A stretch of 64,000 nt of DNA from Syntrophomonas sp. (GTDB lineage Bacteria; Bacillota; Syntrophomonadia; Syntrophomonadales; Syntrophomonadaceae), in NCBI GenBank assembly GCA_039679855.1, contig JBDKUE010000111.1, positions 16,846 to 80,845 on the forward strand. Direction: 5' to 3'. Shown piece by piece: positions 46,731 through 62,413 of the stretch. The position numbers and the translations under genes were made by a program. The notes below the pieces were generated by a model. It made no database searches and was not told the origin of the DNA. It saw nothing but the letters and a program-made list of their open reading frames with translations. Numbering within the stretch: the first letter of the stretch is position 1; each line of letters starts with the position of its first letter.

Positions 46731-47504
46731 TTACAATACCGCCACAGTGCTGGTGGAGTCGGGATGAGTGGGATACAGCTTTATTTCCCTGTCAACACCT
46801 TTATTGGCCAGGATTTCACCTACCGTTTCCCGGGCCAGTAGGGGTGTATTATTTTGCCGGCTGAGGTGGGCCAGCAGTACCTGCATAAACGCAGGGCGGG
46901 GGATGCGAGTTAAAAGAAGGGCGGCCTGCTGGTTGGATAGATGCCCGTAGGCGCCTTTGATTCTCTTCTTCAGGAAAGCGGGATAGGGCCCATTTTCCAG
47001 CATTTCGGGATCATGATTGCTCTCCAGAACAAGGGCATCGGCCATAGCCAGAGCCCCTTCAACCTTCTCGGTAATAGTGCCCAGGTCGGTGGCCAGAACG
47101 ACTTTTTTGTTTCGATGGTAGATGCAAAATCACACCGGATCAACCGCATCATGGGGCAGGGGAAAGGCCTCAATATGTACTCCTTCAATGCTTACCTGCT
47201 GGTCAATCTCTTTAATGCAAGCGGGAGGTATTTTGTCCCGGCAGGTTAGAACCTTCCAGGTCTTGGGCCGGGTATATACCGGAATACAGTGCCGGCGCGC
47301 CAGAACTTCCAGTCCAGCGACGTGATCCTGGTGTTCATGGGTAACGAGAATGGCGTTTAAATCACCTGCCCGGTAGCCGAGGGCCGCCATTCCCTTTTCA
47401 ATACGGCGGGCGCTGACTCCAGCGTCAATCAAGATTAGATTATCCCCCAGGGCAAATAAAATGGCATTGCCGGTACTGCCGCTGGCCAGGACGTGAATGT
47501 GCAT
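46731..47504 (-). pseudogene. YycJ/WalJ-like MBL-fold hydrolase interrupted by one in-frame TGA (47130-47132)
   Basis: The two track ORFs are in the same frame. Read-through gives a full-length 257-residue protein: HEHQDH ... PLPHDAVDPV-TGA-FCIYHRNKKVVLATDLG ... ESNHD ... GHLSN. Start at the ATG after AAGGAG (MHIHVLASGSTGNA). Confidence 0.6.
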
Positions 47505-58863: not shown

Positions 58864-60639
58864 TTAGCTTTCAGGGCCGGTCTGGGCTCTAGTTATTTTG
58901 GCCCAGCTGTCGCGTAGAGACACGATGCGGTTGAAAACCAGCTTATCACCTTTGGTGTCAATGGGATCCAGGTAGAAGTAGCCCTGACGCAGGAACTGGA
59001 AGCGGCTGCCAGGGTAGGCCTCGGCCAGAGCCGGCTCGGCCAGGCACCCGTTCAGTTCCTCCAATGAATTCACATTGATTTTCTGACGGAAGTCAATGCC
59101 ATCCTCGTCATTATCCGGCGTTTCGCTCAGGAATAACTGATCATACAGCCTCACTGTCGCTGTCCGGGCATGGGAACCAGACACCCAGTGGGCGGTTCCT
59201 TTTACTTTTCTTCCACTGGTGGCTCCCCCGCTCTTGGACTCGGGGTCGTAGGTGCAGCGTAGTTCGGTAATATTTCCCGCGCCGTCTTTTATAACTTCCT
59301 CACAGCGAATTATATAAGCGCTCTTCAATCGCATTTCCCCCCCCGGACGCAGGCGGAAAAACTTTTTGGGGGGATCCTCCATAAAGTCTTCCTGTTCTAT
59401 ATAGATCGTCCGTGAAAAGGGTATCTGGCGTTTTCCCATGGCTGGATTTTCCGGATTATTCTCCGTATCCAACCATTCCACCTGATCTTCCGGGTAGTTG
59501 GTAATGACCAGTTTCAAGGGACGTAAAACCACCATCGCCCGAGAGGCTTTCTCGTTCAGATTTTCCCTGATGCAGTGTTCCAGCAGCGCATAGTCAACCG
59601 TGCTGTTTCTCTTGGCAACCCCGATGCGGTCGCAGAAATCCCTGATCGCTTCAGGAGTGTACCCGCGCCGGCGCAATCCGGAAATAGTCGGCATGCGCGG
59701 ATCATCCCAACCGCCCACTATTTTCTCTTCTACCAGGGCCCGCAGTTTCCTCTTGCTCATAACCGTATAACCCAGGTTCAGGCGGGCAAATTCTATCTGC
59801 TGCGGTCGGGTTTCCACCTGGCGGGGATAGGCGCTTAAGGGAAGGGCCTCCAGACACCAGTCATACAGAGGGCGATGATCGGCAAACTCCAGGGTGCACA
59901 CCGAATGAGTAATATTTTCAAAGGCATCCGAAAGGGGATGGGCATAGTCGTACATCGGGTAAATACACCAATCGTCACCGGTGCGGTGATGAGTTGAGCG
60001 CAGTATCCGGTATAATACGGGGTCCCGCATATTCAAGTTGGGGGAAGCCATATCGATCTTGGCTCTTAACACCCGGCTGCCATCCTCAAATTCACCCGCC
60101 CTCATGCGCCGGAACAGATCCAGGTTTTCTTCCACAGAACGCTCACGGTAGGGGCTTTCCTTGCCCGGATCAGTCAAAGTGCCGCGAAAATCCTTGATCT
60201 GCTGGGCGCTCAAATCGCATACGTAGGCTTTGCCGTGTTTTATAAGCTCCTCGGCATAGAGGTAGAGTGCTTCAAAATAATCGGAGGCAAAAAACAGGCG
60301 ATCATCCCAGTCAAAGCCGAGCCAGCGGACATCTTCCTGAATCGAGTCGACAAACTCCACTTCTTCCTTGCTGGGATTGGTGTCGTCAAAACGCAGATTG
60401 GTCAGCCCGCCATTGGCTGCGGCCAGGCTGAAATTCAGGCAGATCGACTTGGCATGTCCTATATGCAGATATCCGTTGGGCTCGGGCGGAAAGCGGGTAT
60501 GCACCTTGCCGCCATTCTTGCCCTCCAGCTTATCCTGGTCAATGATGTTTTGTATAAAATTCACCGGCTTTTGGATTTCCTTAAGCCCGGCGTCTATTTC
60601 CGTCTGTTCTTTTTTAATTTCTACTTCATCTCTGGCCAT
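58864..60639 (-). CDS. glnS: glutaminyl-tRNA synthetase
   Basis: 591 aa with [16 protein letters not shown] and VMSKRK motifs. Confidence 0.96.
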
Positions 60640-60743
60640 GAATGATTTTCCTCCTTAGTATAGCTCTGCTAAATAGTTTAGCAGTTATCCGGCAAAATTA
60701 TAATTATTTCCTCATTTAAGGCATCGGGTTTATGACCTTTTTA

Positions 60744-61277
60744 TCAGATGCTCTGCAGCCGGGCTTCTATTCGTTTAATGCTGCTGCTTCCCCGCCAGCC
60801 GACAAATGATTCCTGCAGCTGTCCCTTGCCGTCAAATATGAAATCGCTTGGAATAGCTTGAGCTTTGTATTTCTGGGAGACGCTCCCCTGACTGTCTAAA
60901 ACCACCTGCCCGGTTATACTATTCTTGCTGACGAATTTGCTCATCTCTTCCCGGCGATCACTGCTCACGATAAGCAGTTCAAAATTATATTTCTGCCGCC
61001 AATCACTGATATAAGGCTGCAACTGCAGCACCTCCTGAACACAGGTTGGTCATCCGGTGGAGAAGAATACCATCAATACCCTTTTGCCTGAAAAATCAGA
61101 AGGAAATTTGATATCTTTTCCGGAAAGATCGGATAGGACAAAGGCCGTATCGTTTGCACCGATCTGGTTTTTCGTCGGAGCAGGTACTTCCGTTTTCGTC
61201 TGGGAGATACATCCCCATAACGTACTGGCAGCAGCCAGCAGACAAAAAAGAACCATCCACCGTGTTACCTGTCGCAC
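60744..61277 (-). CDS. thioredoxin-fold (TlpA/ResA-like redoxin) lipoprotein with UGA-encoded selenocysteine in a U-P-T-C motif
   Basis: Track ORFs 61050-61277 and 60744-61031 share strand and frame and are separated only by the TGA at 61050-61052. The joined sequence is ...GKRVLMVFFSTG-U-PTCVQEVLQLQPY.... Lipobox LWGC. GTG start 6 nt after GGGAGGG. Confidence 0.75.
61013..61052 (-). promoter_or_regulatory. UGA codon plus candidate bacterial SECIS hairpin
   Basis: On the mRNA, UGA is followed about 20 nt later by GCUGC-AGUU-GCAGC (5-bp GC stem, G/U-containing loop, flanking G-U wobbles). Confidence 0.55.
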
Positions 61278-61328
61278 CTTTATCCCTCCCGGTTATCCTT
61301 AAGCGTCCCAGCAATTTTGGCTGGCTCA

Positions 61329-61337
61329 ATTATACCA
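61329..61337 (-). promoter_or_regulatory. extended -10 promoter (TGGTATAAT) of the selenoprotein gene
   Basis: Minus strand reads TGgTATAAT about 45 nt upstream of the GTG start. The palindrome CGCCAATGGCG lies in the spacer just upstream. Confidence 0.45.
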
Positions 61338-61384
61338 CGCCATTGGCGGGATCTCCCTTTTACCACTTTGACAGCATTATGTAT

Positions 61385-61421
61385 ACAAAAATATGGCTAA
61401 AGGAAAAAAAGACCTTTAGCC
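61385..61421 (-). terminator. rho-independent terminator after msrAB
   Basis: 9-bp stem GGCTAAAGG / CCTTTAGCC followed on the minus strand by AUAUUUUUG. Confidence 0.7.
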
Positions 61422-61450: not shown

Positions 61451-62413
61451 TTATTCCTCAAACAAAACCCGATACCCGCCATACCCTTCCTTTTCCAAAT
61501 CCTCTTTGGGAACGAAACGCAAGGCGGCTGAATTAATGCAGTATCTCAAGCCATGCGGCCCCGGCCCGTCGTTAAAGACATGGCCCAGGTGGGAGTCGGC
61601 ATCACGGCTGCGAACTTCCGTCCTTACTATGCCATGACTGTAGTCGATGCTTTCAACCACTTCCTGTTCGGCAATAGGGCGGGTAAAACTGGGCCACCCG
61701 CAGCCGGAATCGAATTTATCCCGGGACGAAAACAGCGGTACCCCGGACACGATGTCAACATAGATACCCTCCCGTCGATTGTTCCAATAGGGATTGTCAA
61801 AGGGCGGCTCCGTACCCCGCTGCTGGGTAACTTCATACTGGATGGGGCTCAGCTTTTGCACCGCTTCGCCGGGAAATTTCCTTCCCTTCCAGTGTTGCTT
61901 GATAAACTGGTCCCTTCCTGAAGCCTCCCGGTACATAGAATAATGCGCAGCGTTTTTCTTATGGTAATCCTGGTGTCCCTCTTCCGCTTCGTAAAAATTT
62001 TCGGCCGGTACTATTTGGGTTGCAATCGACCGATTGAAGACGCCGCTCTTCTCTAATTCCCGCTTTGATTTTTGGGCTTCTTTATGCTGTTCTTCATCAT
62101 GGTAAAAAATAGCCGTGCGGTAGGAATCTCCACGATCATAAAACTGCCCACCCGGATCGGTAGGATCGATCTGCTGCCAGAAGGTCTCGAGCAGGTGGCG
62201 GTAGGAAATCAAATCCGGGTCGTAGGTGATTTGAATGGCTTCGGCATGTCCGGTATTACCGCCACATACATCATGATAGCTCGGATTTTCCTTTTTCCCT
62301 CCGGTGTAACCGGAAACCACTTTTACAACCCCGGTCAGGTTCTCAAACGGCCCCACCATGCACCAAAAGCATCCCCCGGCAAAGGTTGCCTTCTGCAATT
62401 TATCAGAGCCCAT
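61451..62413 (-). CDS. msrAB: bifunctional peptide methionine sulfoxide reductase MsrA-MsrB
   Basis: 320 aa with the MsrA motif GGCFWC at the N-terminus and the MsrB motifs CGWPSF and RYCINSAAL at the C-terminus. No signal peptide. Confidence 0.95.

What the first reader, a model, noticed from the sequence alone, without database searches (positions are those of the whole stretch)
60744..61277. Two adjacent ORFs are one selenocysteine (UGA) thioredoxin-fold lipoprotein with a U-x-x-C redox centre
ORFs 61050-61277 and 60744-61031 are on the same strand and in the same frame, and the only interruption is the TGA at 61050-61052. Reading through gives GKRVLMVFFSTG-U-PTCVQEVLQLQPYISDW. This lines up with the F-W-x-x-W-C-x-x-C redox motif of TlpA/ResA-type redoxins, with the TGA exactly at the first (nucleophilic) Cys. 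Downstream family features are retained (ELLIVSSD..., AIPSDFIFDGKG). A GC hairpin GCUGC-AGUU-GCAGC starts about 20 nt after the UGA, which is the position and loop composition expected for a bacterial SECIS. TGA is otherwise a normal stop in this window (prfA, HlyD, permease and ankyrin genes), so this is local recoding rather than a variant genetic code. Automated callers will split or truncate this gene.
Basis: partly seen in the sequence, partly recalled or inferred. Interest (0 to 1): 0.7.

Follow-up and report, generated by a model that had tools for sequence, protein, structure and literature searches.

The report
Selenocysteine redoxin lipoprotein, known family
The two ORFs are one gene for an exported thioredoxin-fold redox protein whose active-site residue is selenocysteine, encoded by an in-frame UGA and a conserved RNA hairpin. 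The reading is correct, but the same family was already predicted as a selenoprotein in Syntrophomonas wolfei in 2006.

Summary
Confirmed. On the minus strand, 61277..60744 is one reading frame interrupted only by TGA 61050-61052. Read through, it gives a 177-residue ResA/StoA/TlpA-like redoxin with a U-P-T-C centre. The UGA aligns with the first Cys of CxxC in solved StoA and ResA structures.

Comparative evidence is decisive. All 44 genuine family loci found carry TGA at this column. Public protein sets hold the family as about 92-98 aa C-terminal fragments, or with 'W' where the DNA is TGA. A rare Cys form exists. pN/pS is about 0.2 downstream of the TGA.

The hairpin GCUGC-AGUU-GCAGC (61016-61029) is fixed at synonymous sites in 36 distinct sequences of 44-68% GC: 33 carry CTG-CAG-TTG-CAG where 1.3 are expected. 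It has one compensatory change and fits the published bacterial SECIS consensus.

Most members have a signal peptide ending in a lipobox.

Not new in kind. Zhang et al. 2006 list the S. wolfei member (…FFSLGUPGCVDEVLQLQP…, 35% identical) and S. wolfei SelA, SelB and SelD.

Untested: sel genes in this genome, and selenium in the protein.

Modest additions: the invariant SECIS, the exported lipoprotein nature, and a NapH-like polyferredoxin neighbour in most relatives but not here.

The parts
60744..61277 (-). Complete recoded coding sequence: 177 codons including Sec76, plus the terminal TGA at 60744-60746, which is followed directly by TAA.
   Evidence: one frame, single internal TGA. (Pfam AhpC-TSA 3.5e-18 and Redoxin 2e-15, spanning the TGA). 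(pN/pS 0.29-0.32 upstream and 0.19-0.21 downstream of the TGA).
61284..61290 (-). Shine-Dalgarno sequence GGGAGGG, 6 nt upstream of the GTG start at 61275-61277.
   Evidence: sequence read directly. The start gives an n-region MRQVTR followed by a hydrophobic core.
61209..61277 (-). Signal peptide (residues 1-23) ending in the lipobox-like L-W-G-C (61209-61220). Cys23 is the presumed lipidated residue.
   Evidence: most family members have a hydrophobic N-terminus ending in LAGC, VAGC, LGGC, MAGC or LSGC. The closest metagenomic relative (L017) has SISGGC at the aligned position. No dedicated lipoprotein predictor was run.
61050..61052 (-). UGA codon 76, read as selenocysteine. It is the nucleophilic position of the U-P-T-C redox motif.
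   Evidence: TGA conserved in 44 loci plus L074 and L076. (aligns with the first Cys of CxxC in StoA 3erw and ResA 4nmu).
61041..61043 (-). TGT codon 79, the resolving Cys of the UxxC motif.
   Evidence: this column is TGT in 18 and TGC in 18 of 36 distinct sequences, so the residue is invariant while codon choice is free.
61013..61033 (-). SECIS element. The core hairpin GCUGC-AGUU-GCAGC is at 61016-61029. In this clade it is extended by AGG/CUU with a bulged U. It also encodes V-L-Q-L-Q-P of helix alpha1.
   Evidence: NTG 36/36, CTG 35/36, CAG 36/36, TTG 36/36, CAG 34/36. (consensus structure, with one compensatory C-G to U-A change in L067). (spacing 25 nt, -8.6 kcal/mol). (1.3 of 36 expected, 33 observed). 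(G.U to G-C change in the extension in L001).
61395..61421 (-). Terminator-like hairpin after msrAB, followed by a U-rich tail. It suggests that the redoxin is its own transcription unit.
   Evidence: -17.6 kcal/mol, z = -3.58. The simple scanner missed it, probably because its 9-nt loop exceeds the scanner's 3-8 nt limit.
61451..62413 (-). Upstream neighbour msrAB (fused MsrA/MsrB, no signal peptide). It is a neighbour only in the window's own clade.
   Evidence: NCBIfam NF004042, 1.6e-100. (adjacency kept in L001, L017 and L056 only).
58864..60639 (-). Downstream neighbour glnS. This synteny is shared with loci that resemble S. wolfei.
   Evidence: glnS lies downstream of the redoxin in L001, L056, L027, L064 and L070.

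Best explanation
One gene (61277..60744, minus strand) encodes a pre-lipoprotein of the ResA/StoA/TlpA branch of the thioredoxin fold. Its redox centre is Sec76-Pro-Thr-Cys79. During translation, SelB.GTP.Sec-tRNA(Sec) binds the small hairpin GCUGC-AGUU-GCAGC, which lies 20 nt past the UGA, and delivers selenocysteine to UGA76 instead of release factor 2. This step is inferred from established SelB/SECIS biology. The hairpin lies inside the coding sequence and fixes the peptide V-L-Q-L-Q-P at the start of helix alpha1. The product is exported, probably lipid-anchored at Cys23, and acts on the outer face of the membrane as a selenol/thiol-disulfide oxidoreductase, most likely a reductant as ResA, StoA and Etrx are. 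Its substrate and electron donor are unknown. In most relatives a NapH/MauN-type membrane polyferredoxin is encoded next door and is the obvious candidate donor. In this clade that neighbour is replaced by a separately transcribed, cytoplasmic msrAB. Shown here: the single ORF, the fold, UGA at the catalytic Cys column, conservation of the TGA, translation of the downstream part, RNA-level selection on the hairpin, and family-wide export signals. Inferred: Sec rather than another residue, SelB binding, lipidation, and the direction of redox flow.
For: Domain and motif: Pfam AhpC-TSA 3.5e-18 and Redoxin 2e-15 across the TGA. StoA 3erw at 5.7e-14 and ResA 4nmu at 3.6e-11, with the UGA aligned to the first Cys of CxxC and the cis-Pro (IPsdF) aligned as well. 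Conservation: an exhaustive HMMER search returns mostly 90-98 aa fragments that begin just after the motif. The 'W' in P0006 and P0031 is TGA in the DNA. All 44 true family loci from a pattern that allowed TGA, TGC or TGT are TGA. L074 and L076, which lie outside that pattern, are also TGA. Cys form: P0050/L005 has FFSTGCPSC. Translation: pN/pS downstream is 0.19 (L001) and 0.21 (L017), against 1.70 and 0.96 in the off-frames for L017. SECIS: synonymous sites are fixed in 36 distinct sequences of 44-68% GC, with 1.3 expected and 33 observed carrying CTG-CAG-TTG-CAG. There is one compensatory pair change. A 4-nt loop, 5-bp stem, G at loop position 2 followed by U, 25-nt spacing and -8.6 kcal/mol all fit the consensus quoted in PMC13188914. 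All 47 motif occurrences in 524 kb of loci lie 23 nt after a TGA. Standard code: TGA ends 9 of 36 long ORFs. Lineage: the window is 97% identical in DNA to a Syntrophomonadaceae MAG. S. wolfei has SelA, SelB, SelD and this same selenoprotein family (PMC1794560). Internal control: a second in-frame TGA in the window (MBL gene, 47130) sits at an invariant Gly, is not conserved and has no hairpin.
Against: No selA, selB, selC or selD lies in the 64-kb window, in L001 or in the other loci, and the rest of the genome could not be searched. No Rfam SECIS model matches, even at E up to 10. On the window sequence alone the hairpin is not the predicted MFE structure (z = 0.01, about 10% ensemble probability), and the 14-nt core alone (-6.9 kcal/mol) falls just short of the -7.5 criterion. 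No lower stem is conserved across the family. The lipobox has Trp at -2, which is atypical. No experimental evidence for selenium in any member was found in the reviews read (searches list the family as 'predicted').
Confidence: 0.88

Rival explanations
1. The gene is a pseudogene, or the TGA is a sequencing error: a nonsense change in an ordinary Cys-type redoxin, so the two ORFs are debris.
For: In-frame TGAs of this kind do occur in this very window. The MBL-fold gene at 47130 has a private TGA at an invariant Gly.
Against: The TGA is conserved in 44 loci with 36 distinct sequences down to about 30% protein identity. The downstream part is under purifying selection in frame. A conserved hairpin follows at a fixed distance.
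Confidence: 0.01
2. UGA76 is read through as a standard amino acid (Trp or Cys by near-cognate or misacylated tRNA, or Gly). The hairpin acts as a generic read-through or pausing stimulator rather than a SelB-binding SECIS.
For: The Sec machinery was not demonstrated in this genome. No Rfam SECIS model matches. The hairpin is very short and no lower helix is conserved.
Against: The UGA sits exactly on the catalytic Cys column of a redox motif, which is the hallmark of Sec/Cys pairs. The hairpin satisfies the loop-G, G-U and spacing rules of the bSECIS consensus. The family was found in S. wolfei, which has SelA, SelB, SelD and other selenoproteins. Trp or Gly at the nucleophile position would inactivate the motif.
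Confidence: 0.05
3. These are two independent products: a 75-residue secreted lipopeptide ending at UGA, and a 95-residue cytoplasmic protein started at GTG 61031, as gene callers annotate.
For: Gene callers routinely output the C-terminal ORF. AGGAG precedes GTG 61031. Sec insertion is known to be inefficient, so some termination at UGA76 is expected (established knowledge).
Against: The supposed starts (GTG, TTG and the upstream GTN) are simply the conserved Val and Leu codons of the hairpin, and they differ between callers (MQP, MLQLQP, MxEVLQLQP). AGGAG abuts the GTG with no spacer and comes from non-conserved codons. The six codons between the TGA and GTG 61031 show 3 synonymous to 1 non-synonymous change against L001, and keep the invariant Cys. 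Neither half is a complete thioredoxin fold.
Confidence: 0.04

Closest known systems
[quoted passage not shown] It belongs to the predicted family 'Prx-like thiol:disulfide oxidoreductase, PF00578, UxxC/UxxU' of the 2022 and 2026 reviews.
   Same: Same family. Sec is at the same column (FFSLG-U-PGC against FFSTG-U-PTC). The VxEVLQLQP stretch that encodes the hairpin is identical. Both have an N-terminal signal with a lipobox Cys. Identity is 35% over the full length, E = 2e-42. Loci resembling S. wolfei share glnS synteny.
   Different: The window protein is a divergent member (35% identity). Its upstream neighbour is msrAB, whereas loci resembling S. wolfei have the NapH-like polyferredoxin. 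The literature read gives only the sequence and the family label. It does not give the SECIS conservation, the export signal or the partner gene.
ResA and StoA of Bacillus (extracytoplasmic thiol-disulfide oxidoreductases; PDB 1st9, 4nmu, 3erw)
   Same: Thioredoxin fold with the redox motif at the start of helix alpha1, a Glu three residues after the motif, and the cis-Pro loop (IPxxF). All are membrane-tethered outside the cytoplasm. These are the best solved-structure and NCBIfam matches.
   Different: The nucleophile is Sec instead of Cys. Scores fall far below the curated cut-offs (65 against 170 bits for ResA, 63 against 210 for StoA). No ccdA or cytochrome c maturation genes lie nearby. 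ResA and StoA are anchored by a transmembrane segment (from memory), not a lipobox.
Etrx1/Etrx2 surface thioredoxin-family lipoproteins of Streptococcus pneumoniae, which reduce the extracellular MsrAB2 (Saleh et al. 2013, recalled from memory). The PDB hits 2yp6, 4hqz and 4hqs, labelled 'thioredoxin family protein', may be these.
   Same: TlpA-like lipoprotein encoded beside an msrAB gene.
   Different: The window's MsrAB has no signal peptide, and a terminator-like hairpin separates it from the redoxin. A direct partnership across the membrane is therefore unlikely. The Etrx proteins use Cys.
E. coli fdhF and Moorella thermoacetica fdhA SECIS minihelices that bind SelB (from memory: G23 and U24 in a GGUC loop, with a bulged U below a 4-bp stem)
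   Same: A short apical hairpin inside the ORF, G-U at loop positions 2-3 of a tetraloop, a 5-bp GC-rich stem, and in the window's clade a bulged U followed by three further pairs.
   Different: The loop is AGUU, not GGUC. The loop lies 25 nt after the UGA. The bulged-U extension is not conserved across the family. SelB binding was not tested.

Membership tests
Bacterial selenoprotein gene (UGA decoded as Sec through an in-ORF SECIS) | An in-frame UGA is conserved at the same column in homologues, with coding sequence continuing downstream. | tested here: met
   44 loci with 36 distinct sequences, plus L074 and L076, all carry TGA. pN/pS downstream is 0.19-0.21.
Bacterial selenoprotein gene (UGA decoded as Sec through an in-ORF SECIS) | Cys-containing homologues align Cys with the UGA, at a redox-active position. 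| tested here: met
   P0050/L005 has FFSTGCPSC. The first Cys of CxxC in StoA and ResA aligns to residue 76.
Bacterial selenoprotein gene (UGA decoded as Sec through an in-ORF SECIS) | A stem-loop fits the bSECIS consensus: 3-9 nt loop, 4-16 bp stem, G in the first two loop positions, 16-37 nt from the UGA, MFE at or below -7.5 kcal/mol (PMC13188914, Fig. 2 legend). | tested here: met
   4-nt loop AGUU, 5-bp stem, G at position 2 followed by U, 25-nt spacing, -8.6 kcal/mol with the clade-specific extension (core alone -6.9). bSECISearch itself was not available. Rfam models gave no hit.
Bacterial selenoprotein gene (UGA decoded as Sec through an in-ORF SECIS) | Selection acts on the RNA element beyond what the protein requires. 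| tested here: met
   Synonymous sites are fixed: 33 of 36 carry CTG-CAG-TTG-CAG against 1.3 expected from the same genes' codon usage, and TTG is 36/36 against a 17% background. There is one compensatory C-G to U-A change and one C.A break.
Bacterial selenoprotein gene (UGA decoded as Sec through an in-ORF SECIS) | selA, selB, selC (tRNA-Sec) and selD are present in the same genome. | not testable with these tools
   None lies in the window, L001 or the other loci. There is only family-level support: S. wolfei has SelA, SelB and SelD.
Bacterial selenoprotein gene (UGA decoded as Sec through an in-ORF SECIS) | Selenium is demonstrated in the protein (75Se labelling or mass spectrometry). | not testable with these tools
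   The reviews list the family as 'predicted with high confidence' only.
Prx-like thiol:disulfide oxidoreductase selenoprotein family (PF00578, UxxC/UxxU; Zhang and Gladyshev classification) | A PF00578 (AhpC-TSA) domain scoring above the Pfam threshold. | tested here: met
   66.2 bits against a cut-off of 26, E = 3.5e-18.
Prx-like thiol:disulfide oxidoreductase selenoprotein family (PF00578, UxxC/UxxU; Zhang and Gladyshev classification) | A UxxC motif with Sec in the first position. | tested here: met
   U76-P-T-C79. The column is conserved across the family.
Prx-like thiol:disulfide oxidoreductase selenoprotein family (PF00578, UxxC/UxxU; Zhang and Gladyshev classification) | Homology to a published member. 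| tested here: met
   35% identity, E = 2e-42 over the full length to the S. wolfei sequence in supplementary file 4 of PMC1794560.
ResA / StoA (NCBIfam NF002854, NF041202) | A score above the curated family cut-off. | tested here: not met
   65.3 against 170 bits for ResA and 63.3 against 210 bits for StoA. The window protein works like these proteins but is not a member of either equivalog or subfamily.
ResA / StoA (NCBIfam NF002854, NF041202) | A genomic link to ccdA and cytochrome c maturation (ResA) or to sporulation genes (StoA). | tested here: not met
   No such genes appear among the window's ORFs. The neighbours are msrAB and glnS.
Bacterial lipoprotein | A signal peptide ending in a lipobox [LVI][ASTVI][GAS]-C. 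| tested here: inconclusive
   The window has L-W-G-C. Trp at -2 falls outside the usual set (from memory of the PROSITE and DOLOP rules). The aligned Cys follows canonical boxes in most family members. No SignalP or LipoP run was possible.

The most novel reading that the evidence does not exclude
This is a widespread clade of exported lipoprotein redoxins that almost always uses Sec. Among 44 loci matching the conserved peptide pattern none had Cys, and only one Cys form was seen overall. The clade carries an essentially invariant 14-nt SECIS across genomes of 44-68% GC. In most lineages the gene is paired with a NapH/MauN-type membrane polyferredoxin. Together the two would form an undescribed route, distinct from CcdA/DsbD, that carries reducing power across the membrane to an extracytoplasmic selenoprotein. 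The window's clade would have swapped that neighbour for msrAB.
Probability: 0.3. Interest if true: 0.55.

Novelty: new member of a known kind. Interest (0 to 1): 0.3.

Why it matters
For annotation: public protein collections, including NCBI-sourced entries, still hold this family as truncated 92-98 aa fragments or with a spurious Trp at the Sec site. The active-site half of the protein and its selenium dependence are therefore invisible to routine analysis of syntrophic butyrate oxidisers and related anaerobes. The 14-nt motif, with TGA 20 nt upstream of it, is a simple and highly specific marker that could correct these calls.

For biology: an extracytoplasmic, lipid-anchored selenoprotein is unusual. 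The conserved polyferredoxin neighbour offers a testable idea for how it is kept reduced. Neither point changes the basic picture, because UxxC thioredoxin-fold selenoproteins in anaerobic Firmicutes and Deltaproteobacteria have been known from comparative genomics since 2005-2006.

Tried and rejected
- Rfam, at gathering thresholds on the whole window and at E up to 10 on 60600-61400: no SECIS family hit, only noise.
- Single-sequence folding: the MFE structure does not contain the hairpin, and z = 0.01.
- Word-indexed homology search with the joined protein: no hits.
- Exact-sequence look-ups of the window's C-terminal ORF and of MsrAB: not on record.
- The joined protein could not be submitted to the exhaustive search, because of the stop codon or because it is not an exact window sequence. 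The 101 residues after the TGA were used instead.
Replaced by a hand-written degenerate DNA pattern.
The sel genes could therefore not be searched.
- tRNA-Sec scan of 39 loci: none found.
- The promoter/terminator scanner found nothing useful in the msrAB-redoxin gap. Folding shows a terminator-like hairpin with a 9-nt loop, outside the scanner's limits.
- A conserved lower SECIS helix: rejected. Only the window's clade has the AGG/CUU extension.
- msrAB as a functional partner: considered unlikely, because it has no signal peptide, there is a terminator between the genes, and the adjacency is limited to one clade.
- The second in-frame TGA (MBL gene) as a second selenoprotein: rejected. The column is an invariant Gly in 118 of 120 homologues and there is no hairpin.
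- Literature search for the polyferredoxin-selenoprotein pairing: nothing relevant in the held library.
Full report
**1. The observation**

- On the minus strand, the ORFs 61050-61277 and 60744-61031 lie in one frame.
- Translating 61277..60744 gives 177 codons with a single internal stop, TGA at 61050-61052...GKRVLMVFFSTG-*-PTCVQEVLQLQPYISDW....
- The start is GTG 61277. A GGGAGGG Shine-Dalgarno sequence lies 6 nt upstream of it.
- The 'internal start' GTG 61031 is the Val codon inside the hairpin.
- TGA is an ordinary stop in this window.
- The window is 97% identical in DNA to a contig of a Syntrophomonadaceae MAG (L001).

**2. What the protein is**

- With Cys substituted at the stop, Pfam gives AhpC-TSA at 3.5e-18 and Redoxin at 2e-15. 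The match spans residues 44-156, across the TGA.
- NCBIfam's nearest models are ResA (6.2e-18) and StoA (2.4e-17). Both score far below their curated cut-offs.
- The best solved structures are StoA 3erw (5.7e-14) and ResA 4nmu (3.6e-11).
- In those alignments residue 76, the UGA, falls on the first Cys of CPPC or CKPC. The Glu after the motif and the cis-Pro loop (IPsdF) also align.

**3. Comparative evidence for recoding**

- *Exhaustive search.* An HMMER search with the 101 residues after the TGA gave 302 hits. The best are overwhelmingly 90-98 aa proteins that begin at query residues 5-10 with MxEVLQLQP, MLQLQP or MQP. That is what gene callers produce when the homologues are interrupted at the same place.
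- *Apparent Trp residues.* Two full-length calls have Trp at the column (P0006 FFSVGWPSC, P0031 FFSTTWGPC). In both, the DNA codon is TGA.
- *A true Cys form exists.* It is P0050/L005, FFSTGCPSCVNEILRLQP.
- *Pattern scan.* One metagenome scan used a degenerate pattern that allowed TGA, TGC or TGT, then two codons, TGY, two codons, and E-x-L-Q-L-Q-P in any synonymous codons. It returned 68 loci. Together with L001, L003 and L004, 44 loci are genuine family members, with FFS-x-G upstream and about 100 aa of redoxin downstream. All 44 have TGA. Every TGC or TGT match was an unrelated chance hit.
- *Variants outside the pattern.* L074 (YYSST-U-PAC...MLQVQP) and L076 (FFSPG-U-GPC...LLELQP) also have TGA.
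- *Substitution pattern.* Both halves evolve as translated protein in this frame:

| Compared with | Upstream pN/pS | Downstream pN/pS | Downstream off-frame controls |
|---|---|---|---|
| L001 | 0.32 | 0.19 | 1.67 and 0.36 (few substitutions) |
| L017 | 0.29 | 0.21 | 1.70 and 0.96 |

**4. The RNA element**

- The 36 distinct 66-nt stretches come from genes of 44-68% GC, with GC3 of 44-86%.
- Neighbouring synonymous sites vary freely: Cys TGT 18 / TGC 18, Glu GAG 21 / GAA 15, and Pro uses all four codons.
- The codons under the hairpin are nearly fixed: NTG 36/36, CTG 35/36, CAG 36/36, TTG 36/36, CAG 34/36.
- From the codon usage of the same genes, 1.3 of 36 would be expected to carry CTG-CAG-TTG-CAG. 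The observed number is 33. TTG makes up 17% of their other Leu codons.
- RNAalifold recovers only the 5-bp GCUGC/GCAGC stem with an AGUU loop. L067 carries a compensatory C-G to U-A change and L033 a C.A break.
- L074 keeps the stem with loop AGGU. L076 has a 4-bp stem with AGUU inside a 6-nt loop. The Cys form has a degraded UUGC-GCUU-GCAA remnant.
- In the window the core is at 61016-61029. It is extended by AGG/CUU with a bulged U, and L001 turns the G.U pair of that extension into G-C.
- The element meets the bSECIS consensus quoted in PMC13188914:

| Criterion | Required | Found in the window |
|---|---|---|
| Apical loop | 3-9 nt | 4 nt |
| Upper stem | 4-16 bp | 5 bp |
| Spacing from UGA to loop | 16-37 nt | 25 nt |
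| MFE | at or below -7.5 kcal/mol | -8.6 with the extension; core alone -6.9 |

- All 47 occurrences of the motif in 524 kb of fetched loci lie exactly 23 nt after a TGA.
- Weak points: there is no Rfam hit, the single-sequence fold is not significant, and the hairpin has only about 10% probability in the unconstrained ensemble.

**5. Export**

- Most family members have a positively charged N-terminus and a hydrophobic core that ends in a lipobox Cys (LAGC, VAGC, LGGC, MAGC, LSGC...). A few have a plain membrane anchor instead.
- The window has TLWGC, and L017 has SISGGC at the same position.
- The family is therefore extracytoplasmic. Lipidation of the window protein is likely but not shown, because Trp at -2 is atypical.

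**6. Context**

- In the window's clade (window, L001, L017, L056) the gene order is MCP - msrAB - redoxin - glnS.
- MsrAB (NF004042, 1.6e-100) has no signal peptide. A terminator-like hairpin separates it from the redoxin (61395-61421, z = -3.58). A direct partnership is unlikely.
- In 26 other loci the immediate neighbour on the same strand is a 280-340 aa protein with two Fer4_5 (PF12801) domains and a dicluster ferredoxin, i.e. NapH/MauN-like.
- No such gene lies in the window.
- Loci close to S. wolfei (L027, L064, L070) have polyferredoxin - redoxin - ... - glnS. The window gene is therefore the positional counterpart of the S. wolfei selenoprotein.

**7. Comparison with what is known**

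- Zhang et al. [quoted passage not shown]
- Their supplementary file 4 holds its sequence...LSLGGC...ILLTFFSLGUPGCVDEVLQLQPLIKEW.... This is the same family and is 35% identical to the window protein, E = 2e-42.
- Supplementary file 3 of that paper lists S. wolfei SelA and SelB.
- The 2022 and 2026 reviews keep 'Prx-like thiol:disulfide oxidoreductase (PF00578, UxxC/UxxU)' and 'Redoxin family protein (PF08534, UxxC)' among predicted families.
- The kind of protein, and indeed this family, is therefore already known from comparative genomics.
- I did not find three things in the papers read: the nucleotide-level invariance of the SECIS, the lipoprotein or exported nature (the word 'lipoprotein' does not occur in the 2026 review), and the polyferredoxin neighbour.

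**8. Internal control**

- The window holds a second gene with a single in-frame TGA, an MBL-fold hydrolase (TGA at 47130-47132, minus strand).
- Its homologues are all full length. 118 of 120 have Gly at that column, and no hairpin follows the TGA.
- It is a private GGA to TGA change, meaning a pseudogene or a sequencing error. It shows what a non-recoded TGA looks like in the same window.

**9. What remains open**

- The Sec machinery of this genome could not be examined.
- Selenium incorporation, SelB binding, lipidation, the substrate and the electron donor are all inferred.

**Verdict**

My confidence that this is a Sec-decoded gene is about 0.88.
- Novelty: a new member of a known, already published predicted selenoprotein family.
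- Interest: low to moderate.

Noticed in passing
window 46731-47504 (minus strand), TGA at 47130-47132: A YycJ/WalJ-like MBL-fold hydrolase gene is interrupted by one in-frame TGA (...PLPHDAVDPV-*-FCIYH...). The homologues are full length, 118 of 120 have Gly at this column, and no SECIS-like hairpin follows. It is probably a private GGA to TGA nonsense mutation (a pseudogene) or a sequencing error, not recoding.
   Followed up: yes
L060:3045-4064 (+) and the equivalent position in 25 other loci, e.g. L074:298-1161, L027, L033, L047; absent from the window: A NapH/MauN-like membrane polyferredoxin (two PF12801 Fer4_5 domains with CxxxCP motifs, plus a dicluster ferredoxin) is encoded directly next to the Sec-redoxin on the same strand in most relatives. 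It is upstream in most and downstream in L025, L030 and L054. It is a candidate electron donor. I found no description of this pairing in the held literature.
   Followed up: partly
P0001-P0017, P0151-P0157 (protein collections); L003:592-1116; L004:560-1000: Public protein sets hold this family as truncated 88-98 aa C-terminal fragments, some of them NCBI-sourced. Their start codons are really the Val and Leu codons of the hairpin. Other entries are full-length proteins with a spurious Trp at the Sec site, apparently from gene calls that used a TGA=Trp code on short contigs.
   Followed up: yes
L005:135-695 (Cys form, P0050): The only Cys-containing member seen (FFSTGCPSCVNEILRLQP) keeps a degraded version of the hairpin (UUGC-GCUU-GCAA). 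This fits a relic of a Sec-to-Cys conversion. The direction of the change was not tested.
   Followed up: partly
window 60741-60746 (minus strand): The gene's genuine stop is also a TGA, followed directly by TAA (ATC TGA TAA). The same codon therefore means Sec at position 76 and stop at position 178 within one mRNA.
   Followed up: no
window 61395-61421 (minus strand): A 9-bp hairpin with a 9-nt U-rich loop and a U-rich tail lies after msrAB (z = -3.58). A TGGTATAAT extended -10-like sequence follows about 55 nt upstream of the redoxin start. The simple scanner missed the hairpin, probably because of its loop limit.
   Followed up: partly
L001:2067-2996: In the related MAG a thioredoxin reductase (TrxB-like) gene lies about 7 kb upstream of the redoxin, just beyond the end of the window. 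Its relevance is unknown.
   Followed up: no
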